Positions 527 through 40,021 of a stretch of DNA of 64,000 nt are shown here, one piece after another. How positions within the stretch are numbered: the stretch's first letter is position 1; the number at the start of each line of letters is the position of its first letter. This DNA comes from an uncultured Candidatus Saccharibacteria bacterium (GTDB lineage Bacteria; Patescibacteriota; Minisyncoccia; JACPXH01), in contig CAYPCM010000001.1 in NCBI GenBank assembly GCA_964409225.1, positions 32,173 to 96,172 on the forward strand, in the 5' to 3' direction. A program made the position numbers and the translations under genes. The notes below the pieces were generated by a model. That model saw nothing but the letters and a program-made list of their open reading frames with translations, made no database searches and was not told the origin of the DNA.

Positions 527-643
527 TTGACCCCATTAGAAGTCCATAGTTTTACAATCTATTGCGGAGGTCTAAGGGCGAAGCCGCCTAACGGCTTGCG
601 TTCACTTTTTGGAAGACACGATTTAGACCTCTAACGGGGTTGA
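527..643. repeat. Palindromic MITE-like element, family B (CCCCGTTAGAA ends), copy 1
   Basis: Terminal inverted repeats TTGACCCCATTAGAAGTC / GACCTCTAACGGGGTTGA; ~85% identical over ~117 bp to 18208..18326; internal GAAGCCGCCTAACGGCTT hairpin; sits in secY–adk spacer. Confidence 0.7.
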
Positions 644-7220: not shown

Positions 7221-7408
7221 TATACCAGATAACCGTGGAGGGCATGGCTGTGATAGAATGGAGTCGGAGTGAGAAATACGAAATCCTAAACTCTAAATCC
7301 GAAACAAAACCCAATACTTAAATTCCAAATCCAAAACGCTTGGGTTTTTGAGATTTGTTGACTGGATATTGTTTAGGATTTCGATATTCGAATTTAGGAT
7401 TTTGTGCC

Positions 7409-8584
7409 ATGTGGCGTACGCTTGATGACTTAGACGTGACCGGCAAACGCGTGCTGTGGCGCGTTGATTTTAACGTGTCGATCGGCGAAAGCGGCCGTAT
7501 TGATCAGCAAAATGATTGGCGAATGCGCGCGGCACTCCCAACGCTTGAAACGCTTCTCAAGCACAAGGCGCGAGTAATCGCCGTCAGCCATTTGGGCGAG
7601 CCGGCCGAGCGCGACGCCAGGTTATCTTTGGCGCCGGTGGCAAGCCATTTATCAAAGCTTGCCGGTCAGCGGATTAGGTTTGTGTCGAGTGTCGTGGGGC
7701 CGGAAGCAGTGGCAGCGGCAGATAAGCTTGAGCCCGGCGAAATTATGATGCTTGAGAATGTTCGCTTCGAGCCCGGGGAAATAGTGAACGATCCAAAGCT
7801 TGCCGATCAACTGGCCGCGGGTGCGGAAATGTTTGTATGCGATGCTTTTGGTGTCGCGCATCGGCCGCACGCTTCCCTCGTCGGTCTGCCAGCGCGTCTG
7901 CCGTCGGCGGCCGGAGAGCTGATGTGTCGTGAGGTGAAAACACTCGCTGATTTTATGACGAGTCCGCCCCGGCCGGCAGTGGTCATTCTCGGAGGCGCAA
8001 AGGTCGGCACTAAACTGGCGGTGCTGGCGAGGATTATGGCTGTGGCGGACTATGTGCTTTTGGGAGGCGTGCTGGCCAACACGGTCCTTGCGGCCAAGAA
8101 CTTCAATGTGGGCGCTTCACCCGTTGATAAGACGGTTATTCCTGCCTTGCAGAAGCTGGATCTGGCTTCGTCTAAAATTCTTCTGCCGCAGGATGCGACC
8201 GTGGGGTTAGCGACTGATTCGCAGCAAGGGGTGAGACAAGTGGACGTGGCGCGTGTGAGAGCCGATGAAGCGATGTATGACTTGGGCGAGCGCACAATTG
8301 CCCTGTACCAAGAGGCAATCACCGGCGCGGCCAGCGTTGTTTGGAACGGACCCATGGGACTCGCAGAAGTTGATCCGTTTGCTACAGGTACCGTCGCTTT
8401 GGCAGAGGCAATCGCCGGCAGACGCATTCCCGCGATTGTGGGTGGCGGCGACACCGTGGCGTTTTTGATGCGTCGGGGTTTGGCGTCCTCGTTCTCCCAT
8501 ATTTCAACCGGCGGCGGGGCCATGCTCGCGTTTCTGGCAGGTGAGCGCTTGCCGGCTCTGGAGGCGTTGGGGTACTATAGTTAA
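7409..8584 (+). CDS. pgk: Phosphoglycerate kinase (start set at MWRTLDDL, 7409)
   Basis: RVDFNV, MLENVRFEPGE, VILGGAKV, GGGDT motifs throughout. Confidence 0.9.
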   Translation: MWRTLDDLDVTGKRVLWRVDFNVSIGESGRIDQQNDWRMRAALPTLETLLKHKARVIAVSHLGEPAERDARLSLAPVASHLSKLAGQRIRFVSSVVGPEAVAAADKLEPGEIMMLENVRFEPGEIVNDPKLADQLAAGAEMFVCDAFGVAHRPHASLVGLPARLPSAAGELMCREVKTLADFMTSPPRPAVVILGGAKVGTKLAVLARIMAVADYVLLGGVLANTVLAAKNFNVGASPVDKTVIPALQKLDLASSKILLPQDATVGLATDSQQGVRQVDVARVRADEAMYDLGERTIALYQEAITGAASVVWNGPMGLAEVDPFATGTVALAEAIAGRRIPAIVGGGDTVAFLMRRGLASSFSHISTGGGAMLAFLAGERLPALEALGYYS

Positions 8585-9348: not shown

Positions 9349-9468
9349 CAGACCGTCCGAAAACTCCAAAATTTAGTCTTCGAGCTTGTCGAGAAGCCTA
9401 AATTTTGCCTTAAAACCGACGTATTGTTCTCGACAAGCTCGAACAATAACGAGTTTTCGGACGGTCTG
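9349..9468. repeat. Nested-palindrome MITE-like element, family A, copy 1
   Basis: 16–18-bp terminal inverted repeats CAGACCGTCCGAAAACTC…GAGTTTTCGGACGGTCTG; internal inverted CTTCGAGCTTGTCGAGAAG / CTTCTCGACAAGCTCGAAC; near-identical copies at 20199..20318 and 39749..39898. Confidence 0.75.
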
Positions 9469-15960: not shown

Positions 15961-15999
15961 CCGCCCCGACGCCTTCGCGTCGGGGCGGTTTCCTTTTTC
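15961..15999 (+). terminator. Intrinsic terminator (copy 1 of duplicated hairpin)
   Basis: CCGCCCCGACG-ccttc-GCGTCGGGGCGG followed by TTTCCTTTTTC. Confidence 0.6.
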
Positions 16000-16060
16000 A
16001 AGACCTCGGCGCGTTGCGATCACGCTGCGTTTTCTACATCTGGCATATGCACCTGACATG

Positions 16061-16069
16061 TGGTATGAT
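16061..16069 (+). promoter_or_regulatory. Extended -10 promoter candidate (TGgTATGAT) for AbiE-like operon
   Basis: TGGTATGAT 9 nt upstream of GGGG SD and ATG 16078. Confidence 0.3.
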
Positions 16070-16077
16070 AAAGGGGT

Positions 16078-16332
16078 ATGCGCAAGCCCAAATCAACCCC
16101 AAAAATTCGTTTTCGGCAGTCGCTCTTCTGGGATGTGGATCCTAAAACCATTCATCCCAAACGCCACGCTCGCTACATCATCGAGCGCATTCTTGATTTT
16201 GGCAATGACCGCGAGGTGCGGTGGCTCTGGCAGACGTACCCTCGAACGCTCATCGCCGAGGTCGTCCAACACTCGCGGGTGCTTCATAATCAGTCGCGCG
16301 CTTTATGGACGCTGCTCAGTCGCGGGGCGTAA
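16078..16332 (+). CDS. Small partner protein of AbiEii-like nucleotidyltransferase (putative antitoxin)
   Basis: 84 aa, 28-nt overlap with downstream NTase gene; position equivalent to AbiEi. Confidence 0.4.
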   Translation: MRKPKSTPKIRFRQSLFWDVDPKTIHPKRHARYIIERILDFGNDREVRWLWQTYPRTLIAEVVQHSRVLHNQSRALWTLLSRGA

Positions 16333-16985
16333 CCTGGCATGTTGAGGTGTTGCCGCGGACGGTACGCCAGGCCCTTCGGCGTCTCGCCGGAGCGAGATGG
16401 CTTAAGCGTTCGAAATGGTATCTTGCGGGCGGCACAGCCCTCGCCCTTCAAGCGGGGCACCGCGCTTCGGTTGACCTTGATTTTTTTACGCCTCAAAAAA
16501 CGTTTTCCGCAGACCAGCTGCTCGCTCATTTTCCAAAGGAATCGTGGACAGCTGATGTGGTGCGCGAAGGCACCGTCTATGGTCGGTTGCTCGGAACACG
16601 GGTGAGTTTCATTGCTTACCCCTATTTCGTTGCCCGAGCGCCGTATCGATGGTACGGCTCAGTGCGGGTACTCGCGCCGGCTGATATCGCCGTGATGAAA
16701 ATTGTAGCTATTAGCCAACGCGGCCGAAAAAGAGATTTTGTTGACCTCTATTGGTACTGCCGCCACCGTGAACCGCTCGGCGACATTGTGGAGCGACTGC
16801 GAGACCAATATCCCACCGTGGCCCACAACTATCACCATATTATCAAAAGTCTTGCGTATTTTGCCGACGCTGAAGCCGAGCCCATGCCGAAACTTTTTTT
16901 TGACGTAACGTGGAAAGACATAAAAAAGTTTTTTGAGCGCGAAGTGTCGGCCGTCGCGCGCCGGAAGCTTCTGGGCTTGCGCTGA
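16305..16985 (+). CDS. Nucleotidyltransferase, AbiEii/AbiGii-like toxin family
   Basis: Pol-beta-type NTase motif YLAGGTALALQAGHRASVDLDFF (GG…S.DxD) and C-terminal helical domain. Confidence 0.6.
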   Translation: MDAAQSRGVTWHVEVLPRTVRQALRRLAGARWLKRSKWYLAGGTALALQAGHRASVDLDFFTPQKTFSADQLLAHFPKESWTADVVREGTVYGRLLGTRVSFIAYPYFVARAPYRWYGSVRVLAPADIAVMKIVAISQRGRKRDFVDLYWYCRHREPLGDIVERLRDQYPTVAHNYHHIIKSLAYFADAEAEPMPKLFFDVTWKDIKKFFEREVSAVARRKLLGLR

Positions 16986-17008
16986 AAAGGTGTGAGATAA
17001 CGACTCAG

Positions 17009-17045
17009 CCGCCCCGACGCCTTCGCGTCGGGGCGGTTTCTCTTA
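17009..17045 (+). terminator. Intrinsic terminator (copy 2, identical stem to 15961..15988)
   Basis: CCGCCCCGACGCCTTCGCGTCGGGGCGGTTTC identical over 32 nt to copy 1. Confidence 0.55.
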
Positions 17046-17160
17046 CGCGGCAATTTGACGCACGGTAAGGCAGTTTGTATAGTCAGAGCGGAGATGCACT
17101 TTCCCAATCGCTTTGTCGTTGGGCAGAAACCAAGGAAGGACAACCGGAGAGGAGGAGCCC

Positions 17161-18072
17161 ATGCGCAGCATGTTGGCGGCGGTAGTTCTAGTGGCGGCAA
17201 TCCTTGCTCAAGTCCAAGGGGCGTTCGGGGCGGATGAGCCCCCAACGGTTCGCACGATGGCCGGCAGGCACCAGCAGGTGGGCAACACCGAGGTGTCCGG
17301 GGCGTTCTCCGCAACGCTGTTTGCCGACGGGAGCTTCACGGTACGGTTTAATCTGGACTCCTTGGACTGCGACTTCATCAACTTTCGGGCGAACCACGAG
17401 GCGAGCTTTATCGAGTGGTCTCTCGGCCTCCCGCTCGTCATCACGACGTTTCGGACCGCGGGAGGATTCACCCTCGATGCAGCTACGCTCGTACTGGATG
17501 CGCCGTTGTGGATTCATCCCTCCACCGGCGCCCTCATAAACCGGGGATTGTTTCGTCGGTGTGGCGTTGACGATATGCTCGTCGCGTTCCGGCTTACCAT
17601 CCGTTCGGCGAACTTCGCCCCACTCGGTCGGTACGACGGCGACATCAGCGCAACACTGTTGAGCGGGGCGACCCTGCAGCGATCGTTTAGCGGCACCTTC
17701 TCTGCGGTCTCGCCCATGCCGTTTAGGCCGGTCATCGGTTTTCGGGTTGATCCGACGTATCGGGTGGCTGGAGAATGCCTTAACATCCAGTGGCAGTCGT
17801 TACCTGGTGCCGCGTACTACGCGCTCGAATACGTCGGGCCGTCTCGCAGATTCACTGGTCGCGTATTTTCCGCCACGCCGGAACTCGAGCGTAACCAAGG
17901 GTGGGGATCGGTTCTCCTGCCGTCAGCCACCGCCGCCACGGTCTGCACCTCACAAAACACGCCCGGGGGCAGGTATGAGTTGCGGGTGTTCGGATTGGAT
18001 GGTGCCCTCAATGTTGCTCCGGGCACTGGCTCTTCAGTTCCGGTAACGGTGAGTGTAAGTGCGCCGTATTGA
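17161..18072 (+). CDS. Secreted hypothetical protein
   Basis: Signal peptide MRSMLAAVVLVAAILAQVQGAFG; no recognisable motif. Confidence 0.45.
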   Translation: MRSMLAAVVLVAAILAQVQGAFGADEPPTVRTMAGRHQQVGNTEVSGAFSATLFADGSFTVRFNLDSLDCDFINFRANHEASFIEWSLGLPLVITTFRTAGGFTLDAATLVLDAPLWIHPSTGALINRGLFRRCGVDDMLVAFRLTIRSANFAPLGRYDGDISATLLSGATLQRSFSGTFSAVSPMPFRPVIGFRVDPTYRVAGECLNIQWQSLPGAAYYALEYVGPSRRFTGRVFSATPELERNQGWGSVLLPSATAATVCTSQNTPGGRYELRVFGLDGALNVAPGTGSSVPVTVSVSAPY

Positions 18073-18096
18073 CCTGCGGCGCGCCTGCGCCGCCAA

Positions 18097-18134
18097 CCCG
18101 CCCGACGGGAGTCCGTCGGGCGGGTTTCTTTTCT
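18097..18134 (+). terminator. Intrinsic terminator
   Basis: CCCGCCCGACGG-gagt-CCGTCGGGCGGG + TTTCTTTTCT. Confidence 0.6.
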
Positions 18135-18207
18135 CGGGCACCGGGAGACGGCACATAAAACCAATACTATGCCGTATCCGTTCGTGTGATGATTACGGCC
18201 CCGCAGC

Positions 18208-18326
18208 TTGACCCCGTTAGAAGTCCATAGTTCGGCAATCTATTGTGGGAGCCTAAAGGCGAAGCCGCCTAACGGCTTTCATTTATCTTCTTTGGGGGAC
18301 ACGATTTAGACTTCTAACGGGGTTGA
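18208..18326. repeat. Palindromic MITE-like element, family B, copy 2
   Basis: TTGACCCCGTTAGAAGTC…GACTTCTAACGGGGTTGA perfect 18-bp TIRs; homologous to 527..643. Confidence 0.75.
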
Positions 18327-18384
18327 CGCCGGCGGCGTGCGCGGCAATACTTACATTGATTAACCTTAATCAATAAGACCTTTT

Positions 18385-18678
18385 ATGGTTCAGCGACTCC
18401 CTCTCACCAAAGCCCGGATCAACCTCGGCGCCATCGTCAAGCGAGTCCACCTCAACAAAGAATATTTCATTCTCGAGAAAGACGGCATCCCCGTGGCTGG
18501 CCTCATGGACATTGACGAGTTTGAGGACTACTTGGAACTCCGTGATCCCAAGGTCCGTGAGCACATCCGCAAGAGCAACGCGGAGTACCTCGCGGGCAAG
18601 AGTCGGCCGTACCGAGCCCTCCTCGCGGAACTCAAACGCGAGGAGCAACGGGGGACAAAGCGGCGTCAGAAGGCATGA
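18385..18678 (+). CDS. Phd/YefM family antitoxin
   Basis: Small; PLTKARINLGAIVKRV…ILEKDGIPVAGLMDIDEFED typical Phd/YefM; 4-nt overlap with toxin. Confidence 0.75.
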   Translation: MVQRLPLTKARINLGAIVKRVHLNKEYFILEKDGIPVAGLMDIDEFEDYLELRDPKVREHIRKSNAEYLAGKSRPYRALLAELKREEQRGTKRRQKA

Positions 18679-18965
18679 CGGCGCTTTTTCTCGTTCGCTC
18701 CTCGGCGCGATTCGAGCGGCTCTTCCGTAAACTTTTTCGAAGGCACCCCGAGCTCCGTGCTCTCCGCGATCGCGTCGGCGACATCCTCGAGACCGACCCC
18801 ACCAACCGCACCCGGACCCACCACATCAAGAAGCTCGGAGCCGTCCCACTGGGTGAAGGCCAGTGGCGGTTCTTTCTCGGCCGTTTCCGATTCCGCTATG
18901 ACATCTACGGTCGTGAGGTCGTGCTTCAATACTGCGGTCTCCGGCGCGAAGATACGTACCGGTAG
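18675..18965 (+). CDS. RelE/ParE family toxin
   Basis: C-terminal RFRYDIYGREVVLQYCGLRRE RelE/ParE signature. Confidence 0.7.
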   Translation: MTALFLVRSSARFERLFRKLFRRHPELRALRDRVGDILETDPTNRTRTHHIKKLGAVPLGEGQWRFFLGRFRFRYDIYGREVVLQYCGLRREDTYR

Positions 18966-19117
18966 TACCGCGCCTGAGTTCGAGCATTTGCTTCTCCCGG
19001 GCGCGCAGGCGCTACATCTGTCGGAAACATTTCCAAACTTCGGCGGTAGACGGTGGCGTTAAAGAAAACATTGGCTCAGCGGCTGATGAAGATTCGGAAA
19101 AGCATATCATCGTTGTA

Positions 19118-20197
19118 TTGCGTTTTCCATGCCTTGTCGAGCGTGGGCATCGCGCGGAAAACCTGTGGACAAGATGGGGGAATGGCGTGCGAAGTTCGGA
19201 TGCGTGTGGGCCTCGTAGCGTAATGTTGGTGCTCTTGATGTTCCGCCCTGAAGCGCATAGGCGCTTCAGGGCGGTCTCTTTTACGCTGACCTTGCGTGTT
19301 ATGATGCGGCGTACCGTGGAACCAACACCGGACATCCAAATCCTCGCGGCCACGAGCGACCATCGCGAGAGCATCCGCGAGTTGTACCTTCTCGTCGGCG
19401 GGCCGCACGATCACATTCTCCCGTTCCTCCAGCAACCATTCCCTACCGAGGATTTCGTGCCGTTCGTAGCCGTGCACGATTACGCGGTAGTCGGCGTGGG
19501 GTGCGCATTCGTGCTGGAGCCGTACGTGTGGTTGATGGGTTTGCGTGTGCACCCCGACTGGCGCAACCACAAGATTGGTCAGCAATTGGTTGAGCGCAGG
19601 GTGCAGTTTGCCGCGGCGCGGTGCCAGCCGGTAAAAGCCGTCGTGCTCGCGGCCAACGCCCCGGTGGTGCGCGTGTTCACGAATGCGGGTTTTGCCAGCC
19701 AGCCGGGGTTTACGCTCATGGAGGCAACCATTGGCGCGGTGCGTCCGAGCCATTTCTGGGATCGGTCAGTCGTTCGTGCCGCGACCGCAGCCGAGCGCGC
19801 CGAGGTTGCATCGTTTCTCAACGTCAACTATCAGCTTGCGTCTGATCACGTCAACCTCTTTGGCGAAGATTTCGTCTGGCGGCCAATCAGCTCCGCTAAT
19901 GAGCTTGGCCGGCTCGTTGCGAGCCGGCGGCTGCTCGTAAGCCGCGGCGAGGCAGGCACGGTGAGAGGTGTTGCGGTCGTAAACCCAAAGCCAGATCGCA
20001 CTGTTGAAATCGGCAGAATCTGGGGCGAGCCCGCGCCATTCCTGTGGCACATCATCGAGACGGCCGCACCACCGCGCCTGTGGTGGTATCTCTCCGGAGA
20101 AACAGAAGAAGAGCGCGCGCGCCAATTCCGGTTCCAGATTTCCCGCACCGGGACGAGCGAGCGCCGGTATCTTATTTTTACGAAGGATTCTGCCTGA
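19118..20197 (+). CDS. GNAT family N-acetyltransferase (start uncertain)
   Basis: GNAT motif A region HPDWRNHKIGQQLVERRVQFAAARC…, two acetyltransferase-like halves. Confidence 0.5.
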   Translation: MRFPCLVERGHRAENLWTRWGNGVRSSDACGPRSVMLVLLMFRPEAHRRFRAVSFTLTLRVMMRRTVEPTPDIQILAATSDHRESIRELYLLVGGPHDHILPFLQQPFPTEDFVPFVAVHDYAVVGVGCAFVLEPYVWLMGLRVHPDWRNHKIGQQLVERRVQFAAARCQPVKAVVLAANAPVVRVFTNAGFASQPGFTLMEATIGAVRPSHFWDRSVVRAATAAERAEVASFLNVNYQLASDHVNLFGEDFVWRPISSANELGRLVASRRLLVSRGEAGTVRGVAVVNPKPDRTVEIGRIWGEPAPFLWHIIETAAPPRLWWYLSGETEEERARQFRFQISRTGTSERRYLIFTKDSA

Positions 20198-20198: not shown

Positions 20199-20318
20199 CA
20201 GACCGTCCGAAAATGCCAAAATTTAGTCTTCGAGCTTGTCGAGAAGCCTAAATTTTGGCATAAATACGTCAGTGGTTCTCGACTTCGCTCGAACCATATC
20301 GAGTTTTCGGATGGTCTG
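20199..20318. repeat. Nested-palindrome MITE-like element, family A, copy 2
   Basis: CAGACCGTCCGAAAATGCC…GAGTTTTCGGATGGTCTG; begins 1 nt after GNAT stop and supplies last ~16 codons + stop of the convergent gene. Confidence 0.75.
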
Positions 20319-28200: not shown

Positions 28201-28606
28201 TTCCGGCACTCCCGCGTGCGCGGTCTTTTCTACGCCGAGTCATCCGTACCCGCAGCCGGATTTCACGCATAATCCTTCGACGCTTACGCCCGGCACGCCC
28301 ATCGCCTTTAGCGCCGATGCCTCAACCGCTGCTCCGGGCCGTCAGATAGTGCGCTGGTTCTGGAAATTCCTTGACGGGGTTGCCACCGCCCCTGACGACG
28401 CTGATTCAGATCCTGACGAAGTGCTCCATGTGAGGCCGCCTTCAACTCGTTCACGTCCCAGCGCTACTTACAGCACCGCCGGTGCGAAAACAGTTACCCT
28501 CACGGTTCAAGACGACGGCGGCCCGGAGTTCACTTGCAGCCGGTTGAAGGTGCTTTTCGGCGGCTCCGGCGCAAATCTGGACTGGCGGGAGGTGAAGCCG
28601 CGGTAA
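25262..28606 (+). CDS. Giant secreted/surface protein with fibronectin-III/Ig-like repeats
   Basis: N-terminal TM/signal, repeated …VTAGLPTGASATF… modules, Pro/Gly linkers (PGGPGGPPG), FN3-like WSPV…Y.VR segments; 1114 aa. Confidence 0.6.
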   Translation: MKWSWSKLRLPPRPWLVGFGFWVGVLVILAFMAAAPPSFPKPQPSIATIPHCGETNEWLALVDKYLGTQLAEAQSGGPCVKISAQCQGSDDAYPGFKLEWFGVAHLPSWKYQLVIPGFEFMRPDGGIQAAGAGFRRWDIDPSVPTLSAGSGLITQLVRTETATGLAVDDDTYYRAAVYSQNTTAVQCAGTDEASNNRAPDCLRFRTRDLPPDPRYGVLVTSATCPWQAEETTEVSIPCGQTTLYTSPLSSNRGGQTEWEISGVTPVSASPILTSNTSQPPRVYSGTFDDGSTVSLSMRDNQVVASRTSPPGGVCDPPPPTITCELRINGLADASWQSSSSPAPTLTWSTADFRDGDTIEAKEYTASNVPTGKEASSNQAAGSTGLGSLPRVRPGESPVTRKYVATPYDTGAPNGSVRSGSESCEANLTITAESPPVCPGGLTCVGGCTPLPSYNSAELTWSPVANARVYRVRTSRSDGTILRTDDVTPPTTRITITGLAPSTSYLFSVQTIDQLDNSSALCPGAGLTATTSPGPGGPGGPPGTPALTLTAGPTCTQMTLSWPDVANETSYEVYRGPTSSGPWTLITSPALAANTTSYTDSGRTQLTSYSYYVKALNAVGPATSNIATATTDACGGPGGADFSVSVAPASRTVSPGQSTTYTVTVTSTSLPNTPITLSVTAGLPTGASATFAPNPVTTPSTDGSVTSTMTVSTIASTPLGTSSLTISGTGASLTRTAPTTLVVDTSGSNFTLDATPASVTVQPGETANYRVAIIPTNLPNTDITLAVTAGLPAGATASFGSNPVRTPASGDVQTDMFIATAPGTSAGTYPLTVRGSTTGASPIVRTDTVNLVVNTSGGPNTPPDPPGGPGGGPTPPSRTLMCESPARLTFEFVYTDPDTPPDNADRFTFQVARDAGFANLIVSRSYSSPVSSGTTLNQLVTMQTGADPGGVRDVLYYGQSYYWRVKAWDSRGAESRWSCGDSGTPACAVFSTPSHPYPQPDFTHNPSTLTPGTPIAFSADASTAAPGRQIVRWFWKFLDGVATAPDDADSDPDEVLHVRPPSTRSRPSATYSTAGAKTVTLTVQDDGGPEFTCSRLKVLFGGSGANLDWREVKPR

Positions 28607-28692
28607 TAAAAAATCCAAAGCACAAAGCACAAAATCCAAGGCACAAATTCAAATGACAACGAAGTCATCTCAAAATTCTCAAAAAAGGCGTT

Positions 28693-28775
28693 ATTCTTCG
28701 AGCGAAGTCGAGAAGAGACCTTTATATAACCTTTATATAAGCAGTTATTGTTCTCGACAAGCTCGAACAATAATG
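28693..28775. repeat. Degenerate internal fragment of family A element (no outer TIRs)
   Basis: TTCTTCGAGCGAAGTCGAGAAG … TTATTGTTCTCGACAAGCTCGAACAATAA matches the inner inverted repeats of family A. Confidence 0.4.
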
Positions 28776-28848
28776 CGTGAGCTAGTTTCGAGATGACTTA
28801 AACATGTTTCGAGATTTGAGGTTTGGTTATTATTTTGGATTTTGAGCT

Positions 28849-29334
28849 TTGGATTTTGGATTTCGTTTTATGGATCAGAACAAAAAACATCTCTTCATTC
28901 TCCTTGGCCTCGGCGTCGCGGTCGTAATTTTTATCGTGATCGCATTCTACCAAAAGCCCACGCCCGGGCCGCAGCCCGGGCCGACCCCGCCGCCAGACAA
29001 CGGCGCTCCGGCAAACGATCTGCCGAAGGACTTGCGCGTGGTGTCGGGCAAGATTACGAACATTGCCGGCAGCAGCATGACGATCGAATGGACCGTGCCG
29101 CAGAAGCTTGATTTTAGCGAAATAAAGGTTTTCCCGAAGCATATTACGTGGACGAACAGCACGACCTTCAGCCGGGTACGGGCCGACGCGCCCGGCGCGA
29201 AACCCGAGGTGATCAAATCCTCGGATCTCAAAATCGGCCAGACCGTGGTGGTCAGCACTCTTGAAACGGTCCAGGATCATTTTGAGCTAACCGCGCTTAG
29301 TATTCAGGTGCAGGTGCCGCCAACACCAAAATGA
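28849..29334 (+). CDS. Small membrane-anchored secreted protein (hypothetical)
   Basis: N-terminal TM, Pro-rich linker; overlaps next gene by 4 nt. Confidence 0.4.
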   Translation: MDFGFRFMDQNKKHLFILLGLGVAVVIFIVIAFYQKPTPGPQPGPTPPPDNGAPANDLPKDLRVVSGKITNIAGSSMTIEWTVPQKLDFSEIKVFPKHITWTNSTTFSRVRADAPGAKPEVIKSSDLKIGQTVVVSTLETVQDHFELTALSIQVQVPPTPK

Positions 29335-30178: not shown

Positions 30179-31885
30179 ATGTCAAACAGATTTAAATATC
30201 ATAGAGTAATCATTGCCGCCGCAGTGATTTTCAGCGGATTGTTTGCCGTGATCTTTTCAAATCCGGCGGAGGTCTACGCCGACAGGTGTATAGGCAATGA
30301 TTGGTATGTTTACGGGCCGAACGGATCAGCTTGCGGATATACGGAAACATGCAATCCACCCGATCCAACTTGGTACCATCTTGATGAACCGCCCACGTAT
30401 TTTGTAGCTTATCCTGGCGTGTACTTATATTGCACCTGGTTTGGCGCCGAGCAACTATCGGGGTGGACTTACGGCGCCCCTTATTGGTACCAAAAGCCGC
30501 AAAGGGTGCCACAATCCTGCGAATATCTTCAAACCAAAAACGATCCTCGATGCTTAGCTCCGTCGGGCGCCCCGGGCGCGCTTTCAACTTCATGCCCTAT
30601 CCCGGGAACGAGCGCGACTGTTTCCTGGGGTTCTGTGCCTGGAGCTACCTACTACGCGTTGCGGGTAAATAATACCGCTGACGGGTGGGATGGAAGTTGT
30701 TCGTCACCCCAAGGCGATCTTTGTTCAAATGTTTTCGGTACGGGGTACACCTTTACCTCGCGAGCAGGTAATACCTATGGTTGGTGGGTGCATGCCTGCA
30801 ATAGTAATGGGTGTAGTAGTCCAGCCAACGGACCAAACTTCACTTGCTCCTCGGCTCCTATTCGTCCTTCTATCCCCGGTACGCCTTCGGTTTCTCCCAA
30901 TCCCAGTAACGTAGGGGACACCCTTAGTTTTTTTTGGGGAGCCGCAAGCGGCGCGACCTCTTATGTAGTTGATACTCAAAGCGGGACGTGTATTTCTGAA
31001 GGATGTTTTCCCGGAGATAGGACTACTATGACTAGCAGTGGATATTCTGCCGGTGCTAATTGGGTAAGGGTTAAGGCCTGTAATTCCAGTGGTTGCAGTT
31101 CTTATTCCCCTCAAACCAATTTTACGGTGAATTCGCCTCCGCCGCCACCGCCGCAGAATTTGCGGATTACGCCGGCAGGCACCCAGAGGCACGGCGATGT
31201 TGCGACGATCCAGTGGGATCCGGTTAGCGGAGCGACGTCCTACCTTTTCTTTTCCTCTTGGCCGGTTTGCGTCAGCGGTTGTCAGCTTGCCGGAACGCAG
31301 GTTGGCCCAGGAGTAAACACATCGGTTGGTTCGGGCACCCATTCGTTCTGGGTCAAGGCCTGCAACGCCACCGGTTGCGGAGGTTCGACGATCCCGGTGT
31401 ACTTTGCGGTTCAATCGAACAACGCCGCGTTCGTGTCGCAGAAAATCAATAATCAGTCCAACCCCATCTCCTTTAACGTCCCGCCTGGTCAGACGACTTT
31501 CAGCGTGGAGCTGACGTTCCAGAATACCGGGGACGCAACATGGGACAATCCGGGGGGATACGTGCTTAGAAGCAAGAACCCGGACGGGAATACCACGTGG
31601 GGTAGTTCCGAGGTGCAGCTTGTTCCTTCGGCTGCAGATCGGACGACGGTTTTAAAGAATCAGCAGGTTAAGTTCTCTGGACCAGTTCCGGCGCCGACGA
31701 ACCCCGGCACCTACCAATTCCAGTGGCAGATGTATCGCAAGACGACAACCGCGGGCTTCCCGGACTACGGGTATTTCGGTACTGCCTCGACGAACGTGAC
31801 CATCACCGTGCCGGGTCCGGTATCAGCCCAGCCGATCAGGGTGCAACTCCAGATTCGCGCCAAACAGCATTTGCCGATTCAGTAA
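30179..31885 (+). CDS. Secreted Cys-rich protein with FN3-like repeats
   Basis: Signal/TM; repeated …GATSY…V.AC…GCS… modules; 568 aa. Confidence 0.45.
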   Translation: MSNRFKYHRVIIAAAVIFSGLFAVIFSNPAEVYADRCIGNDWYVYGPNGSACGYTETCNPPDPTWYHLDEPPTYFVAYPGVYLYCTWFGAEQLSGWTYGAPYWYQKPQRVPQSCEYLQTKNDPRCLAPSGAPGALSTSCPIPGTSATVSWGSVPGATYYALRVNNTADGWDGSCSSPQGDLCSNVFGTGYTFTSRAGNTYGWWVHACNSNGCSSPANGPNFTCSSAPIRPSIPGTPSVSPNPSNVGDTLSFFWGAASGATSYVVDTQSGTCISEGCFPGDRTTMTSSGYSAGANWVRVKACNSSGCSSYSPQTNFTVNSPPPPPPQNLRITPAGTQRHGDVATIQWDPVSGATSYLFFSSWPVCVSGCQLAGTQVGPGVNTSVGSGTHSFWVKACNATGCGGSTIPVYFAVQSNNAAFVSQKINNQSNPISFNVPPGQTTFSVELTFQNTGDATWDNPGGYVLRSKNPDGNTTWGSSEVQLVPSAADRTTVLKNQQVKFSGPVPAPTNPGTYQFQWQMYRKTTTAGFPDYGYFGTASTNVTITVPGPVSAQPIRVQLQIRAKQHLPIQ

Positions 31886-32043
31886 GCACATTCTCGGTTC
31901 AGTATTCGGAAGGTCTCTGCGCTAGCAGGCCTTTTCGACGTGTGCGAATGTCCACTTGACTGCCGCCGGTGGATGGCTATACTGGAGCTATAACAGTACT
32001 GTATCACCCCCGAAAAGGGAGGGCGAATATTGGGATACAATCT

Positions 32044-32361
32044 ATGCCCAAAGAGGTGAGCGCCCTCAAGATGCGCCACAATCTGGGAGAGATCTTGAAT
32101 CAGGTCGCCAACCAGCGGCTCCGCTTTGTGGTGAAGCGCGCCGGCATCCCCGCGGCAATCCTCATGAGCATCCAGGACTACGAGGACTTGGAGGACCTGG
32201 TCGAAACAGCCGTCGAGGAGGCGGGTCCCAAGTTCCAGCGGAGTTTGCTCGAGGGTCGTAAGGCCATTGACGCGGGCCGCTTCACGACCGCGGCGGATCT
32301 ACGGCGGGACTTGCGGCGGAAAGAGGCGAAGGTGCGCCGGACGGGGAAAAGGAGCCGCTAA
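32044..32361 (+). CDS. Phd/YefM family antitoxin (start at MPKEV, 32044)
   Basis: MPKEVSALKMRHNLGEILNQV…RFVVKRAGIPAAILMSIQDYEDLEDLVE Phd/YefM signature. Confidence 0.7.
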   Translation: MPKEVSALKMRHNLGEILNQVANQRLRFVVKRAGIPAAILMSIQDYEDLEDLVETAVEEAGPKFQRSLLEGRKAIDAGRFTTAADLRRDLRRKEAKVRRTGKRSR

Positions 32362-32375
32362 GTCCGCTCGAGCGC

Positions 32376-32627
32376 ATGGCCTTCACCCTCCGGTATGCGC
32401 CGCAGGCCCGCAAGGATTTCGGTCGCTTGGATGTCGAGACGCTCCGGCGTATTCTCGCCGCGCTGTAAGAGCTCTGTGCGAACCCGCACACAGGCGGGAT
32501 TCTGCGGGGCAAGAAGGTGGGCCGGCGTAAATTCAGGGTTGGCGACTACCGGATTCGTTATGACATCGTCGGCCAGTACGTGGACATCTATCGGGTGCGC
32601 CACCGACGGGAGGTATATCGGGATTGA
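32376..32627 (+). pseudogene. RelE/ParE-family toxin gene interrupted by in-frame TAA (codon 31)
   Basis: MAFTLRYAPQARKDFGRLDVETLRRILAAL*ELCANPHTGGILRGKKVGRRKFRVGDYRIRYDIVGQYVDIYRVRHRREVYRD in a single frame; TAA at 32466..32468. Confidence 0.6.
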
Positions 32628-32706
32628 GAAATGTCCGGTCCGCTGGCGAAAAACCATTAATAGGAGGGTCTGACCCTACTATTACAAGAGGAGATTTTTT
32701 GGAGTT

Positions 32707-33168
32707 ATGAAGCGTACGGACGCGCCCCAACTAATCATTCATGCCGATGGCGGCTCACGGGGCAACCCCGGGCCGGCGGCGTTGGGCGTGGTCATTGAGC
32801 CGGCGGCTGGTTCGGATCTTAAACCGGGTCGGAAAGAATACGCCGAATACTTAGGCGAGCTTACGAACAACGAAGCCGAATACCGCGCGCTTATTTTTGC
32901 CCTGAAAAAAGCCAAACAGCTTTATGGCAAAGACAAAATTGCCAAGGCGGCGGTGGAGGTGCGAATGGATTCTGAGCTGGTGGTCAAGCACCTCAACGCC
33001 GAATATAAAATTGAGGACGAAAAGCTCCAGCCGTTATTTCTTGAAGCGTGGAATCTGAGGCAGGATTTCGGTTCGGTGCGCCTTATCGCCGTCCCGCGTC
33101 AGAACAACCGCCGGGCGGATGCGTTGGTGAACCGCGTGCTCGACCAGCAGGGGAGTCGGCTGCTCTAG
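32707..33168 (+). CDS. rnhA: Ribonuclease HI
   Basis: IHADGGSRGNPGPAA…TNNEAEYRALI…DSELVV RNase H catalytic motifs. Confidence 0.85.
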   Translation: MKRTDAPQLIIHADGGSRGNPGPAALGVVIEPAAGSDLKPGRKEYAEYLGELTNNEAEYRALIFALKKAKQLYGKDKIAKAAVEVRMDSELVVKHLNAEYKIEDEKLQPLFLEAWNLRQDFGSVRLIAVPRQNNRRADALVNRVLDQQGSRLL

Positions 33169-33229
33169 TCCACTCTCATCTTGATTATTGATGGGTTTAA
33201 GTATATACTTTGTGTATACATACTTTGTT

Positions 33230-33472
33230 ATGAGCACCAAAGTTCAAAAATGGGGCAACAGTCTTGCCGTGCGGCTGCCGAAAGAAGTCGCCGTTAAGTT
33301 TGGTTTGAAAGAGGGGGCGGTAGTCCAAATCGTGCCGTCGGTGAAAAACATTATCTTGAAACCCGTTTCCAGGAAAAGGTTAACATTGCGGGATCTCGTG
33401 GGGGAAATTACCCCCAAGAATAGGCACGACGAGGTTTCGTGGGGTAAACCCCGCGGTAGAGAAGTATGGTAG
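33230..33472 (+). CDS. mazE: MazE/AbrB-type antitoxin
   Basis: KVQKWGNSLAVRLPKEV… SpoVT/AbrB swapped-hairpin motif; overlaps mazF. Confidence 0.7.
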   Translation: MSTKVQKWGNSLAVRLPKEVAVKFGLKEGAVVQIVPSVKNIILKPVSRKRLTLRDLVGEITPKNRHDEVSWGKPRGREVW

Positions 33473-33804
33473 CTAGAAATTATATCCCCGGCCGAGGCGA
33501 TGTAGTGTGGGCGGACTTTGATCCGGTTAGGGGCCACGAAGAGCAAGGCCGCCGACCCGCTTTCGCCGTTTCTTCGCTCGAATACAATTCGCGTTCCGGC
33601 CTCGTTCTGTTGTGTCCGATAACTTCCAAACCCAAAGGATATCCGTTTGAGGTGGCGATAAATCTGGCGAAGATTAAGGGAGTAATTCTGGCCGATCAGG
33701 TTCGCAGCGTTGACCGGAGTAAACGCAGAATCAAGTTCATAGCCAAGGCGGACTATTCGGTGCTTGAGAAAGTGCGGGAAAGGTTGGCGTTACTGATAAA
33801 TTAG
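33466..33804 (+). CDS. mazF: MazF/PemK family mRNA interferase toxin
   Basis: PGRGDVVWADFDPVRGHEQ.GRRPA…VLLCPITSK PemK/MazF signature. Confidence 0.75.
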   Translation: MVARNYIPGRGDVVWADFDPVRGHEEQGRRPAFAVSSLEYNSRSGLVLLCPITSKPKGYPFEVAINLAKIKGVILADQVRSVDRSKRRIKFIAKADYSVLEKVRERLALLIN

Positions 33805-34054: not shown

Positions 34055-34963
34055 CAAGTGGATTGGATAGTCGCGCTCATTGAAATTTCAGTGGGTGAGG
34101 AAAGTCCGAACACCCCAGCCGATGCGCGGCATCGGAAATTCGAAGCTCGAATTTCGAATTTCGAAACAAATTCAAAATTCCAAATACAAATGTTCCAAAC
34201 GTTTGGAATTTGGGATATTGGGTATTGTGATTTGTTTCGAATTTCGAATTTCGGATTTCGTGCTTCCGCTGCTGCGCAGCGGCTGGAAGTAGGCAGTCGC
34301 TAACGGCGACCGGGAGCAGCTTGTTTCATCGGCGCGGTTCACGAATTGTTGCACGTAGCGCATTCGTGACTATGTGCGACATTGACTGCGTTTAAGGATA
34401 CGAGCGAAGCCCAGGGAAAGTGCCACAGAGACATATACCGCCTGCCGATGCTTCGCATCGGGAAACTCGAAATTCGAATTTCGAAACAAATTCAAAATTC
34501 CAAATACCAATGTTCCAAACGTTTGGAATTTGGGATATTGGGTATTGTGATTTGTTTCGGATTTCGTGCTTCGGATTTGGGATTTCCGCTGCGAAGCAGC
34601 GGTTGGTAAGGGTGAAAAGAGTGGGTTCGCCTTCGTTCCGCTTTCGCGGAACTTCGGCGGAATAAACCCGCCTTCATGCGCCAGCGCGCCGGAAGGTGTG
34701 GTGAACGTAAGAGCCCACAGTTCTCGCAGGTGACTGTGAGAAGAGGAAAACCCTGCCTGGTGCAAGGTCAGCGTTTCCTCGGCAGATTTCGTCTGCCGCG
34801 GGATTCGAAAAGTTAGACCGCTAGAGGCCGCGAGCAATCGCGGTCCCAGATAGATGGCTATCAGGGCGTGCGGCCTGTAAACCCCTCCCCAGTTTGCAAA
34901 ACAAACTGGGGAGGGGGAGGAAGGGCCGCACTCCTTACAGAATTCGGCTTATAGATCCACTTG
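34055..34963 (+). ncRNA. rnpB: RNase P RNA (bacterial type A core) carrying two ~165-nt inserted palindromic modules
   Basis: P1 pairing CAAGTGGAT/ATCCACTTG; P4 strands GAGGAAAGTCCGAAC and ACAGAATTCGGCTTATAG; conserved GGGAAAGTGCCACAGAGA, GGTAAGGGTGAAAAG, AACGTAAGAGCCCACAG, GGTGCAAGGTCAG, CCAGATAGATGGCTATCAGGG blocks matching E. coli M1 RNA; ~909 nt vs ~380 expected. Confidence 0.75.
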
Positions 34964-35047: not shown

Positions 35048-36475
35048 ATGAAGCGCATTCAACTCTTGTTTACGGCGCTTTTGGTCCCGCTCGATTATGT
35101 GGCCTTGCTATTGGCCGGCATAGCGGTTTACTCCTTGCGCACCGGCGAAGTCGGTCGGGCTGTCATTGGGCCGGTTTTGTTTGCGGCGCGCGTGCCTTTT
35201 GAGCGGTATTTTGCGCTGGTGGCCGGTGTGGCGGCTATTTGGCTTGCGGCGTTTGCATTCATCGGTCTTTATCGGTTTGAGACAACCAAAAAGCCGGTCG
35301 AAGAATTCACCAAAATTGTCATTGGCTCGACCGCCGGCATAATGACCGTCATTTTCTATATGTTCTTTCGTCAGGAAATTTTTGATTCGCGGTTTCTGGT
35401 GCTGGCGGGTTGGGTGGCGGGGATTTTAGCGGTGACGCTGGGTCGTTTTCTCATGCGCGCGATATCGCGGTCTTTGCTTATTCGTTACCAAATCGGCGCG
35501 CATAAAGTTTTGGTGATTGGCCGGGACGAAGTGTCGCGGGCGGTGGTGGCGGCCATACGCAGCGATCCAGAATCCGGTTATGTCATCGTCAAGCACTTGT
35601 TTGAGCCGAACATCGTCGCGGTGGCGGCGTCAGTTGGCAATCCCGGCGCGGACGAGATTATTTTGACCGATCCGGACTGGCCGAGGGAACGCATCATAGA
35701 ACTCATCGATTATGCGACTGATAAGCGCCTTGCCTTCAAGTTCGTGCCGAATCTGTTTCAAACGCTCACAGCCAATGTCGCCTTTGAAACAGTGGGCGGG
35801 GTGCCGCTCGTTGAGTTCAAGCGGTCTCGGCTTGACGGCTGGGGGCGAATCGCCAAAAGAAGCATCGACATATTCGGCGCTTTTGGCGGCTTCGTCGTGT
35901 TGGCGCCGGTAGCGGCGGTTATTGCGCTCGCAATCAAATTGGAATCGCCCGGCCCGGTCATTTATCGCAACCGTCGCGTGGGGCCTCGGGGCGAATTTGA
36001 AACGTTTAAGTTTCGCACGATGAAGCTTGAGTATTGCACCGATGAGCGTTATCCCAACTGGCGCCGGGCGCGCGAGTTTGAGGCGAAGCTCGTAGCCGAA
36101 CGCAGCCGTAGGCGCGGGCCGGTGTTCAAAATTATGGACGATCCGCGCCGCACCCGAGTTGGCCGTTTCCTTGAGCGCACCAGCTTAGATGAGCTGCCGC
36201 AGTTTGTGAACGTGTGGCGCGGGCACATGTCGCTGGTGGGACCGAGACCCCACATGCCTCGGGAGGTTGAGCGTTACGCGAGGCATCATCAGTTGGTGTT
36301 TAATGTAAAGCCCGGCATAACGGGTTTGGCGCAAACCTCGGGCCGTTCAGACCTCGATTTTGAAGACGAAATAAAACTCGATCTCTACTACATGGAGCAC
36401 TGGTCGCTCAAATTAGATTTTGCCATTTTGCTTAAGACGCCGTTTGTGATGTTTTTTAGGCGCCACCGGAACTAA
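35048..36475 (+). CDS. Polyprenyl-phosphate sugar phosphotransferase (WbaP/bacterial sugar transferase family)
   Basis: N-terminal TM block, C-terminal sugar-transferase domain (…KFRTM…, …PRPHMPREV…GITGLAQ…); start moved to 35048 clear of rnpB. Confidence 0.8.
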   Translation: MKRIQLLFTALLVPLDYVALLLAGIAVYSLRTGEVGRAVIGPVLFAARVPFERYFALVAGVAAIWLAAFAFIGLYRFETTKKPVEEFTKIVIGSTAGIMTVIFYMFFRQEIFDSRFLVLAGWVAGILAVTLGRFLMRAISRSLLIRYQIGAHKVLVIGRDEVSRAVVAAIRSDPESGYVIVKHLFEPNIVAVAASVGNPGADEIILTDPDWPRERIIELIDYATDKRLAFKFVPNLFQTLTANVAFETVGGVPLVEFKRSRLDGWGRIAKRSIDIFGAFGGFVVLAPVAAVIALAIKLESPGPVIYRNRRVGPRGEFETFKFRTMKLEYCTDERYPNWRRAREFEAKLVAERSRRRGPVFKIMDDPRRTRVGRFLERTSLDELPQFVNVWRGHMSLVGPRPHMPREVERYARHHQLVFNVKPGITGLAQTSGRSDLDFEDEIKLDLYYMEHWSLKLDFAILLKTPFVMFFRRHRN

Positions 36476-36518
36476 TATCAAAAATCAAAAAGCAAAGAGC
36501 AAAAATACAGATCAAAAA
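36474..36518. repeat. AT-rich inverted repeat, left arm, flanking four-helix-bundle gene
   Basis: AATATCAAAAATCAAAAAGCAAAGAGCAAAAATACAGATCAAAAA ~80% identical to reverse complement of 36916..36961. Confidence 0.4.
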
Positions 36519-36534
36519 TTCTAAAATACACAAC

Positions 36535-36909: not shown

Positions 36910-36915
36910 TCTTTC

Positions 36916-36961
36916 ATTTTTACCTTGTATTTTTGCTATTTGATTTTTTATTTTTGATATT
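36916..36961. repeat. AT-rich inverted repeat, right arm
   Basis: TTTTTACCTTGTATTTTTGCTATTTGATTTTTTATTTTTGATATT, reverse-complement-similar to 36474..36518. Confidence 0.4.
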
Positions 36962-39748: not shown

Positions 39749-39898
39749 CAGACCGTCCGAAAACGCCAAAATTTAGTCTTCGAGCCTGTCGATGGTTCGA
39801 CAAGCTCACCACAGGGAAGATACATTGGGGGTTTCCCTGCCCCGAGCCACGTCGAGGGGTCGACAAGCTCGAACAATAACGAGTTTTCGGACGGTCTG
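39749..39898. repeat. Nested-palindrome MITE-like element, family A, copy 3 (150 bp, +30 bp internal)
   Basis: CAGACCGTCCGAAAACGCC…GAGTTTTCGGACGGTCTG; same TIRs/internal repeats as 9349 and 20199 copies. Confidence 0.75.
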
Positions 39899-40021
39899 TT
39901 TATCACGCGGGAAACCGAGGTGCCGAGCATTCCAGAACCGACGTGGCTGCCTGCGCCGGTTACTTTGCCGGCTGTGCCAATGCCCAGAGCCACGGCGCGG
40001 CTCAGCAGTGAGGCGCAGCCG

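What the first reader, a model, noticed from the sequence alone, without database searches (positions are those of the whole stretch)
9349..9468. Family A: 120–150-bp nested-palindrome element with CAGACCGTCCGAAAAC inverted termini (three full copies and one fragment in 64 kb)
Full copies lie at 9349..9468, 20199..20318 and 39749..39898 (the last with an extra 30-bp internal segment). An internal fragment lies at 28693..28775. All full copies share 16–18-bp perfect TIRs and an inner inverted pair CTTCGAGCTTGTCGAGAAG / CTTCTCGACAAGCTCGAAC. Copies sit at gene boundaries: upstream of recJ, between convergent GNAT/MTase-like genes, and upstream of the DUF4012 gene. This is a MITE-like organisation. 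Conservation of sequence and structure also fits a small structured RNA or a protein-binding site.
Basis: seen in the sequence. Interest (0 to 1): 0.65.

Follow-up and report, generated by a model that had tools for sequence, protein, structure and literature searches.

The report
IS1182-derived MITEs in a Parcubacteria genome
These 120-150-bp nested palindromes are miniature, gene-less transposons (MITEs) whose 16-bp ends are identical to those of IS1182-family insertion sequences found in related candidate-phyla bacteria. This is an ordinary kind of mobile DNA, with the small curiosity that one copy sits in frame inside a conserved envelope-protein gene.

Summary
The repeat is real. Three full copies lie at 9349-9468, 20199-20318 and 39749-39898, and they share the terminal inverted repeat CAGACCGTCCGAAAAC (6 arms found against 0.22 expected). 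The "fragment" is a complete 138-bp palindrome (28662-28799) with the same interior module but different outer repeats.

A scan of public metagenomes with the 16-mer found 1.5-2.1-kb elements bounded by the same repeat. Each of the three I scanned carries one ORF that scores above the curated NCBIfam cut-off for IS1182-family transposase. One complete element lies in another Parcubacteria MAG.

MITE-sized elements with the same ends but unrelated interiors occur in several CPR lineages, Peptococcaceae, Rubrobacteraceae and a sphingomonad. Target-site duplications are inconsistent (4, 3 and 0 bp). That fits published IS1182-family behaviour: IS1272 makes no duplication and targets hairpins, and MITEPye1 has 4-bp repeats.

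Copy 3 is not upstream of the DUF4012 gene. It lies in frame inside it and adds 50 residues that orthologues lack. Copy 2 supplies the last 17 codons and the stop of a methyltransferase-like ORF. Copy 1 ends 13 nt before the recJ start.

No Rfam family, promoter or terminator signal was found. The verdict is a MITE family of IS1182 origin: a new member of a known kind, of modest interest.

The parts
9349..9468 (.). MITE copy 1 (120 bp). Terminal repeats at 9349-9366 and 9451-9468, 18/18. Lies between the response-regulator gene (stop at 9313) and recJ (called start at 9482).
20199..20318 (.). MITE copy 2 (120 bp). Terminal repeats at 20199-20214 and 20303-20318, 14/16. Flanked by TGAT on both sides. 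Begins 2 nt after the GNAT stop codon and supplies the last 17 codons plus the stop of the convergent methyltransferase-like ORF (stop at 20269-20271, minus strand).
39749..39898 (.). MITE copy 3 (150 bp). Terminal repeats at 39749-39764 and 39883-39898, 16/16. Inserted in frame at codon 140 of the 871-aa DUF4012 ORF (39332-41947). Encodes QTVRKRQNLVFEPVDG...NNNEFSDGL. Flanked by TTT on both sides.
28662..28799 (.). Related 138-bp nested palindrome. It has the same interior module (TTCGAGC-N3/4-TCGAGAA in inverted pairs), in reverse orientation relative to copy 2. Its outer inverted repeat is different: AAGTCATCTC(A/G)AAA at 28662-28676 and 28785-28799, 13/15 between arms.
9379..9443 (.). Interior module pair of copy 1 (9379-9395 plus strand, 9427-9443 minus strand). 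The same module is at 20229-20245 and 20276-20293, and at 28697-28714 and 28751-28767.
   Evidence: 6 matches against 0.01 expected
31902..31916 (-). Possible solo or decayed end (GTATTCGGAAGGTCT, 2 mismatches to the 15-mer), just after the stop of ORF 30179-31885. About 0.1 such matches are expected by chance, so it is uncertain.
   Evidence: the chance estimate is my own calculation

Best explanation
Family A is a family of MITEs. These are short elements with no transposase gene, derived from or dependent on an IS1182-family insertion sequence.

Proposed mechanism (inferred from the family, not shown here): the 16-18-bp terminal inverted repeat CAGACCGTCCGAAAAC(TC) is the binding and cleavage site of a DDE transposase with the DUF772 + DDE_Tnp_1 architecture. 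That transposase is supplied in trans by a full-length IS elsewhere in the genome, or was in the past. It cuts out the element and inserts it elsewhere. As in other IS1182-family members, insertion leaves no target duplication or only a short one, and may favour hairpin or palindromic DNA.

The interior is a lineage-specific nested palindrome that is not needed for recognition.

Shown in this window: the insertions are tolerated at gene boundaries, and once in frame inside the variable N-terminal linker of a DUF4012 protein. Any effect on expression of recJ or of the convergent gene pair is speculative.
For: 1. The same terminal repeat bounds autonomous elements. Twelve of them hold inverted pairs 1.5-2.1 kb apart.
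2. The single ORFs of L088, L095 and L070 score 351.6, 345.4 and 272.3 bits on NCBIfam NF033551, IS1182 family transposase, cut-off 270. In Pfam, L088 and L095 hit DUF772, DDE_Tnp_1 and DDE_Tnp_1_6; L070 hits DUF772 and DDE_Tnp_1_6.
3. 23 of the 120 loci carry such a transposase (tblastn). Many other hits lie about 100 nt from contig ends, as expected where a repeat breaks an assembly.
4. The same lineage hosts such elements. Named homologues of the L088 transposase include Parcubacteria, Patescibacteria and Nomurabacteria entries. In Parcubacteria MAG GCA_007376025.1, exact repeats at 5921 and 7993 enclose the 456-aa transposase P0060. The home genome is annotated as Candidatus Parcubacteria bacterium.
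5. The MITE ends match the IS right ends for 20-24 nt: CAGACCGTCCGAAAACTCCAAAAT against L088 ...CTCCAAATAAC and L157 ...CTCAAAATAAC.
6. Annotated IS1182-family elements have similar ends: ISMsp1 GAGGCTGTCTCAAAA, ISBce1 GAGGTTGTCCCAAAAG. The 2-kb metagenomic group uses the intermediate GAGACTGTCCGAAAAC.
7. MITE-sized elements (79-160 bp) with the same ends occur in 7 species of 4 phyla and in metagenomes. Interiors between genomes are as alike as shuffled sequence: 0.54 against 0.53.
8. There is evidence of insertion. The three copies have unrelated flanks. DUF4012 orthologues P0002 and P0003 (65% and 57% identity) keep the N-terminus upstream of the insertion but lack the 50-residue segment. 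Their syntenic loci hold no copy.
9. Two Logan contigs stop exactly 30 nt into copy 3. I infer a further copy with an identical start somewhere in those metagenomes.
10. The irregular duplications (TGAT, TTT, none) match the literature. IS1272 has 16-bp repeats, no duplication, hairpin targets and a duplicated left end (PMC5678879). MITEPye1 has 18-bp repeats and 4-bp duplications (PMC11578231).
11. In 45 scored pairs, the flanks extend the palindrome by 9 and 7 bp in L024 and L031.
Against: - No IS1182-type transposase or remnant lies in the 64-kb window (tblastn). The rest of the home genome could not be read, so a partner in the same genome is not shown. The copies may be immobile relics.
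- No empty site at the DNA level was found. The only absence evidence comes from orthologues at 57-65% protein identity, in a poorly alignable linker.
- The target duplication is not consistent across the three copies.
- Beyond about 22 nt the interior shows no similarity to the sampled full-length IS, so an origin by internal deletion is not shown.
- The 28.7-kb unit and L120 carry the same interior module without this terminal repeat, which a simple deletion-derivative model does not explain.
Confidence: 0.9

Rival explanations
1. A small structured RNA gene or cis-regulatory RNA whose conserved long stem is the functional unit.
For: Both strands fold far better than shuffles, z = -6.5 to -10. 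Some copies elsewhere change both arms symmetrically: the second L031 copy has CGAGAAC in both arms, and the 28.7-kb unit has arms that agree 13/15 while differing from family A.
Against: No Rfam family matches, at gathering threshold in the window or at E<=1 in eight related loci; only generic hairpin matches to miRNA models appeared. The stem sequence is invariant across phyla rather than covarying. The loop interiors are unrelated between genomes. The same ends bound transposase genes. One copy lies inside a coding frame. No promoter or terminator consensus was found.
Confidence: 0.03
2. A REP/REPIN-type element: paired palindromic units spread by a RAYT (IS200/IS605-like Y1) transposase rather than by a DDE transposase.
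For: The interior module TTCGAGC-N3/4-TCGAGAA always occurs as inverted pairs. It also occurs without the family-A ends, at 28662-28799 and in L120. In the Peptococcaceae MAG, GTAG-type REP hairpins lie inside and beside the elements.
Against: The conserved, cross-phylum part is the outer 16-nt repeat, and that repeat belongs to IS1182-family elements. The window copies have no GTAG motif. I did not search for a RAYT gene. REPINs are species-specific, whereas these ends are identical across phyla.
Confidence: 0.03
3. A host regulatory site: an operator for a transcription factor, or an invertible promoter flanked by recombinase sites.
For: The copies sit at gene boundaries: 13 nt before recJ, between convergent genes, and in a polysaccharide gene cluster.
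Against: There is no sigma-70-like promoter in or near copies 1 and 2. The interior is itself nearly palindromic, so inverting it would change little. The downstream genes have no common function. One copy is inside an ORF. The ends are identical in unrelated phyla, each with its own interior.
Confidence: 0.02

Closest known systems
MITEPye1 of Paracoccus yeei (an IS1182-family MITE, PMC11578231)
   Same: It is a short non-coding element with about 18-bp terminal repeats matching an IS1182-family IS (ISPye18). It is low in copy number, mostly intergenic and folds into a long stem-loop. It has 4-bp direct repeats, like copy 2 here.
   Different: The host phylum differs (Alphaproteobacteria against Parcubacteria/CPR). 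I could not compare the sequences, because that paper's text does not give them. Here the duplications are inconsistent and one copy is intragenic and in frame.
IS1272 / IS1182 family insertion sequences (PMC5678879; NCBIfam NF033551)
   Same: The terminal repeats are 16 bp and of the same general form as ISMsp1 and ISBce1. Target duplications are often absent. There are signs of insertion into palindromes: flank extensions in L024 and L031, and a tandemly repeated left end in L025 that resembles IS1272L.
   Different: The window elements carry no transposase, so they are not insertion sequences. The nearest annotated transposases on plasmids are at most 38% identical to the CPR-type enzyme.
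Rickettsia palindromic elements (RPE) (from my own knowledge)
   Same: These are palindromic elements of roughly 100-150 bp that can sit in frame inside protein-coding genes and add a peptide segment, as copy 3 does in the DUF4012 gene.
   Different: I recall no linked transposase for RPEs. Here the ends identify an IS1182-family partner, and only one of three copies is intragenic.
Correia elements (Neisseria MITEs) (from my own knowledge)
   Same: Similar size (about 100-160 bp), terminal inverted repeats, size variants that differ in the centre, and a location at gene boundaries.
   Different: Correia elements have about 26-bp repeats, a TA duplication and documented promoter and RNase III effects. 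None of these was found here.
REPINs / BIMEs (from my own knowledge)
   Same: Inverted pairs of short palindromic units that form a larger hairpin. This resembles the interior module pairs.
   Different: REPINs are mobilised by RAYTs and are species-specific. The ends that define family A are IS1182-type and shared across phyla.

Membership tests
MITE (non-autonomous derivative or dependant of an IS) | Small size with no transposase coding capacity | tested here: met
   The elements are 120-150 bp. tblastn with three IS1182 transposases finds nothing in the window.
MITE (non-autonomous derivative or dependant of an IS) | Terminal inverted repeats matching those of an autonomous IS | tested here: met
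   The repeat is 16/16 identical to the ends of L088, L095, L149, L151, L070 and L157, which enclose IS1182-family transposase genes.
MITE (non-autonomous derivative or dependant of an IS) | Several copies at non-homologous sites | tested here: met
   There are three copies with unrelated flanks in 64 kb. The Logan contig breaks 30 nt into copy 3 imply further copies (inference).
MITE (non-autonomous derivative or dependant of an IS) | Target-site duplication typical of the parent family | tested here: inconclusive
   The flanks give TGAT (copy 2), TTT (copy 3) and nothing (copy 1). The parent family is itself irregular: IS1272 makes none, MITEPye1 makes 4 bp (PMC5678879, PMC11578231).
MITE (non-autonomous derivative or dependant of an IS) | Presence/absence polymorphism (empty sites) | tested here: inconclusive
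   The element is absent from the DUF4012 orthologues of two relatives at 57-65% identity and from their syntenic loci. No near-identical strain with an empty site could be retrieved.
MITE (non-autonomous derivative or dependant of an IS) | Autonomous partner in the same genome | not testable with these tools
   Only this contig of GCA_016186535.1 was readable, and the genome is not in the genome-contig collection (one search did not return it). A partner exists in another Parcubacteria MAG.
IS1182 family insertion sequence | Encodes a DUF772 + DDE transposase (NF033551) | tested here: not met
   No such ORF lies in or near the copies. The copies are therefore dependants of the family, not members.
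Described structured RNA family (Rfam 15) | Covariance-model match at or near the gathering score | tested here: not met
   In the window only tRNAs pass. In 8 related loci the elements match only miRNA-precursor models, far below threshold.
REP/REPIN | GTAG-led palindromic units and an associated RAYT gene | tested here: not met
   The window copies have no GTAG motif. I ran no specific RAYT search, and the whole genome was not available.

The most novel reading that the evidence does not exclude
IS1182-type ends may repeatedly acquire host-specific palindromic (REP-like) modules, so that each lineage builds its own MITE around the same 16-nt ends. This would follow if the transposase acts on hairpin or cruciform DNA, as in the 'IR-replacing' mode proposed for IS1272, and so exchanges or captures whole stem-loops.

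Three observations would then fit together:
- Identical ends with unrelated, always-palindromic interiors across phyla.
- The same interior module under two different outer repeats in this window (family A and 28662-28799).
- REP hairpins inside and beside the Peptococcaceae copies.
Probability: 0.15. Interest if true: 0.5.

Novelty: new member of a known kind. Interest (0 to 1): 0.25.

Why it matters
This mostly matters for annotation. It explains a conspicuous repeat and warns of assembly breaks at it. It also corrects two gene models: the DUF4012 protein carries a 50-residue MITE-encoded insert, and the methyltransferase-like ORF has a MITE-encoded C-terminus.

It documents that reduced CPR/Parcubacteria genomes carry IS1182-family elements and their MITEs. 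My one full-text search on MITEs in the CPR found no description of them. It also shows that one terminal-repeat type is shared across at least four phyla.

The set of elements collected here has identical ends and lineage-specific palindromic interiors, and some have flanks that extend the palindrome. It could serve as comparative material for the poorly understood hairpin-targeting transposition reported for IS1272.

Tried and rejected
- **Rfam.** I searched the window at gathering threshold and eight related loci at E<=1. Nothing matched the elements.
- **Literature search for the TIR string.** It returned only an unrelated plant SSR paper.
- **Viral contigs scan.** It gave 16 single hits. 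I estimated about 13.5 by chance, and only L005 holds a 90-bp pair.
- **Ideas considered from memory and dropped** because the sequence does not fit: integron attC sites (core RYYYAAC/GTTRRRY absent), Tn3-family ends (no GGGG...TAAG), IS630/Tc1 (no TA duplication), a hammerhead core (a coincidence in one flank only), a LexA or Cheo box in front of recJ (wrong arrangement), and an inverton (interior nearly palindromic, no promoter).
- **Promoter and terminator scans** around copies 1 and 2: no hits in the elements.
- **Empty-site strains.** I looked up the exact GNAT and response-regulator proteins that end just before copies 2 and 1. Only the home contig carries them.
- **Origin of the interior.** I compared MITE interiors with the subterminal sequence of five full-length IS. 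There is no similarity beyond about 22-24 nt, so origin by internal deletion is not shown.
- **Relatives' loci.** L033-L035 contain no family-A copy.

Full report
**Observation.** The 15-mer CAGACCGTCCGAAAA occurs six times with at most 2 mismatches, as three inverted pairs. Shuffles of the window give 0.22 expected, and none of 100 shuffles reaches six. The interior motif TTCGAGC-N3/4-TCGAGAA occurs six times against 0.01 expected, always as inverted pairs. Every copy folds into a long hairpin on either strand, z = -6.5 to -10.

Several details need correcting:
- Copy 2's ends match at 14/16, not perfectly.
- Copy 3 shares only its outer ~44 and ~39 nt with the other copies. Its centre is a different sequence, not a 30-bp addition.
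- The "fragment" is a complete 138-bp nested palindrome, 28662-28799. It has its own outer inverted repeat, AAGTCATCTC(A/G)AAA, matching 13/15 between arms. Its interior runs in the opposite orientation to copy 2.

**Origin of the window.** The window is part of contig JACPLK010000001.1 of MAG GCA_016186535.1. Its proteins are labelled Candidatus Parcubacteria bacterium.

**Gene context.**
- Copy 1 lies between a response-regulator gene (stop at 9313) and recJ. The called recJ start, 9482, is 13 nt past the element.
- Copy 2 begins 2 nt after the stop of a GNAT gene. It provides the last 17 codons and the stop codon of the convergent methyltransferase-like ORF.
- Copy 3 lies inside the 871-aa DUF4012 ORF, starting exactly at codon 140 and running for 50 codons.

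The ORF start at 39332 is real. Orthologues P0002 and P0003 (65% and 57% identity, from syntenic GT4-DUF4012-MurJ-LepA loci) share the N-terminal MRNIFPQLFDVRPRGRDGEVD...EKI.RVEAVL and LTA..LAEL.AIYERD blocks upstream of the insertion point. They lack the element-encoded segment QTVRKRQNLVFEPVDG...NNNEFSDGL. Their loci contain no family-A end. So copy 3 is an in-frame insertion into the variable cytoplasmic linker that precedes the transmembrane segment. The same reading frame is open in all three copies.

**What the ends are.** I scanned one genome per species (GTDB representatives) for two facing ends 71-131 nt apart. This gave 12 elements of 107-145 bp in 7 species: a Peptococcaceae MAG (4 copies), Candidatus Vogelbacteria (3), two Saccharibacteria, one Sungiibacteriota, a Rubrobacteraceae MAG and the sphingomonad Facivitalis istanbulensis. 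They share (C/G)AGACCGTCCGAAAAC at both ends. Their interiors are as dissimilar as shuffled sequence, mean identity 0.54 against 0.53. The exception is the Sungiibacteriota and Saccharibacteria copies, which share an interior.

Identical ends around unrelated interiors pointed to a shared transposase. I therefore scanned the metagenome collection with the single 16-mer. Twelve loci hold inverted pairs 1.5-2.1 kb apart. I examined three of them:
- The single ORFs (456, 463 and 595 aa) score 351.6, 345.4 and 272.3 bits on NCBIfam NF033551, IS1182 family transposase (equivalog, cut-off 270).
- The two shorter ORFs hit Pfam DUF772, DDE_Tnp_1 and DDE_Tnp_1_6. The 595-aa ORF hits DUF772 and DDE_Tnp_1_6.

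By tblastn, 23 of the 120 loci carry such a gene. Many of the other hits lie about 100 nt from a contig end, which is the usual signature of a multi-copy IS breaking an assembly. At least a dozen more MITE-sized pairs (79-160 bp) are present.

**Link to the host lineage.** The 456-aa transposase has thousands of homologues. Those with names include Parcubacteria group bacterium Gr01-1014_66 (P0060, 70% identity), Patescibacteria and Candidatus Nomurabacteria. In that Parcubacteria MAG, exact CAGACCGTCCGAAAAC ends at 5921 and 7993 enclose P0060. The window MITE ends agree with the right ends of these IS for 20-24 nt and not beyond.

Annotated IS1182-family elements on plasmids are at most 38% identical at the protein level. 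Their ends have the same form: ISMsp1 GAGGCTGTCTCAAAA and ISBce1 GAGGTTGTCCCAAAAG. The 2-kb metagenomic group uses the intermediate GAGACTGTCCGAAAAC. The window itself holds no transposase remnant.

**Insertion signature.** I scored 45 end pairs.
- Most have no target duplication.
- Some have 4 bp: TGAT at copy 2, and also L030, L140 and L091.
- Several of the 2-kb IS sit in poly-G or poly-C runs, with 4-5-bp duplications.
- Copy 3 has TTT and copy 1 has none.
- In a few cases the flanks extend the palindrome: 9 bp in L024, 7 bp in L031, 4 bp in L120.

By my own estimate, a 7-bp extension is expected about 0.003 times in 45 elements, so these are not chance.

This matches the literature on the family. 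IS1272 has 16-bp terminal repeats, makes no duplication, inserts at inverted-repeat structures downstream of genes or at their 3' ends, and sometimes carries a tandemly duplicated left end (PMC5678879). That paper cites Siguier et al. for palindrome targeting in the IS1182 family. L025 shows such a doubled left end. MITEPye1 of Paracoccus yeei is a published IS1182-family MITE with 18-bp ends and 4-bp repeats (PMC11578231).

**Explanation.** Family A is a MITE family mobilised, now or in the past, in trans by an IS1182-family DDE transposase that recognises the 16-18-bp ends.

Shown:
- The ends are identical to those of autonomous elements.
- Such elements occur in the same candidate phylum.
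- The copies have unrelated flanks.
- The element is absent from orthologous genes.
- One insertion is in frame.

Inferred:
- Mobilisation in trans.
- A preference for hairpin targets.
- Further copies elsewhere in the genome. Two Logan contigs end exactly 30 nt into copy 3, as a k=31 assembly graph would if another locus shares that 30-mer.

Not shown:
- A transposase in the home genome.
- An empty site at the DNA level.
- Any effect on gene expression. No promoter or terminator consensus was found.

**Rivals.**
- A structured RNA is unlikely. There is no Rfam match, the stem is invariant rather than covarying, and the loops are unrelated.
- A REP/REPIN reading fits only the interior module, which also occurs without these ends: under different outer repeats at 28662-28799 and bare in L120.
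- A host operator or an invertible promoter has no support.

**An open point.** The same interior module sits under two different outer repeats in this window. In other genomes the interiors are built from that lineage's own palindromes. An example is the GTAG-type REP hairpins inside and beside the Peptococcaceae copies. A simple deletion-derivative origin does not explain this. One possibility is that these ends capture or exchange whole hairpins. I rate that as unlikely but not excluded.

**Verdict.** This is an ordinary class of mobile DNA and a new member of a known kind. The points of mild interest are the CPR host, the in-frame insertion, and the sharing of one end type across phyla.

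Noticed in passing
window 527-643 and 18208-18326; L033 9651-9854 and 9887-9988: A second palindromic repeat family of about 117 bp. Its ends are TTGACCCCGTTAGAAGTC...GACTTCTAACGGGGTTGA, and the two window copies are 86-92% alike. A relative (GCA_964373035.1) has two tandem elements with ends ACCCCGTTAGAAAAC...GTTTTCTAACGGGGT immediately upstream of its DUF4012 gene. Probably another MITE family; no partner was sought.
   Followed up: partly
window 54519-57900: A low-GC island (36-40% against ~56%) directly after a tRNA gene (54519-54589). It encodes an EcoRI-type adenine methylase (54658-55662), a GmrSD_N + HNH endonuclease (55652-56737) and a 378-aa ORF with no Pfam hit. It looks like a horizontally acquired restriction or defence island.
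   Followed up: partly
window 53599-54513: A 304-aa ORF with a weak LAGLIDADG_3 match (E = 7e-07) lies immediately upstream of that tRNA gene.
   Followed up: no
window 57977-58043 and 61065-61131: A 67-bp direct repeat (84% identity) brackets about 3 kb that holds MazE-like, GyrI-like, NUDIX and DEAD-box helicase genes. The first copy sits at the edge of the low-GC island.
   Followed up: no
window 15961-15992, 17009-17040, 18097-18128: Identical 32-nt GC-rich hairpins with a T-tail (CCGCCCCGACGCCTTCGCGTCGGGGCGGTTTC) recur after successive genes. They look like terminators and are reused almost verbatim.
   Followed up: no
window 34115-34606; also 7273-7412, 28605-28873, 36474-36961, 44086-44111, 47960-47982, 52526-52558: AT-rich intergenic regions are built from short periodic motifs (AAAATCAAAAATC, ATTTTGGATTTTGAG, GAATTTGGGATATTGGGTATTGT). 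They include a 145-bp direct repeat and an 86-nt inverted repeat at 34.1-34.6 kb. Unexplained.
   Followed up: no
L092 70-4333: Tandem head-to-tail copies of a 2.1-kb IS1182-family element, separated only by GGGGG (...ACGGTCTG GGGGG GAGACTGT...). This is an abutted-ends junction.
   Followed up: no
L021, L026, L027, L030 (Peptococcaceae MAG Gx485_bin131): The IS1182-type MITEs there lie next to, and contain, GTAG-led REP-like hairpins (GTAGGGGCGGCATCCTGCCGCCC). This fits hairpin targeting, or nesting of two repeat systems.
   Followed up: partly
window 16000-19500 and 31900-33800: Several toxin-antitoxin or abortive-infection pairs are present: DUF6922/AbiEii, PhdYeFM, ParE and MazE/PemK, plus an RNase H/RVT_3 ORF. 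This is dense for a small genome.
   Followed up: no
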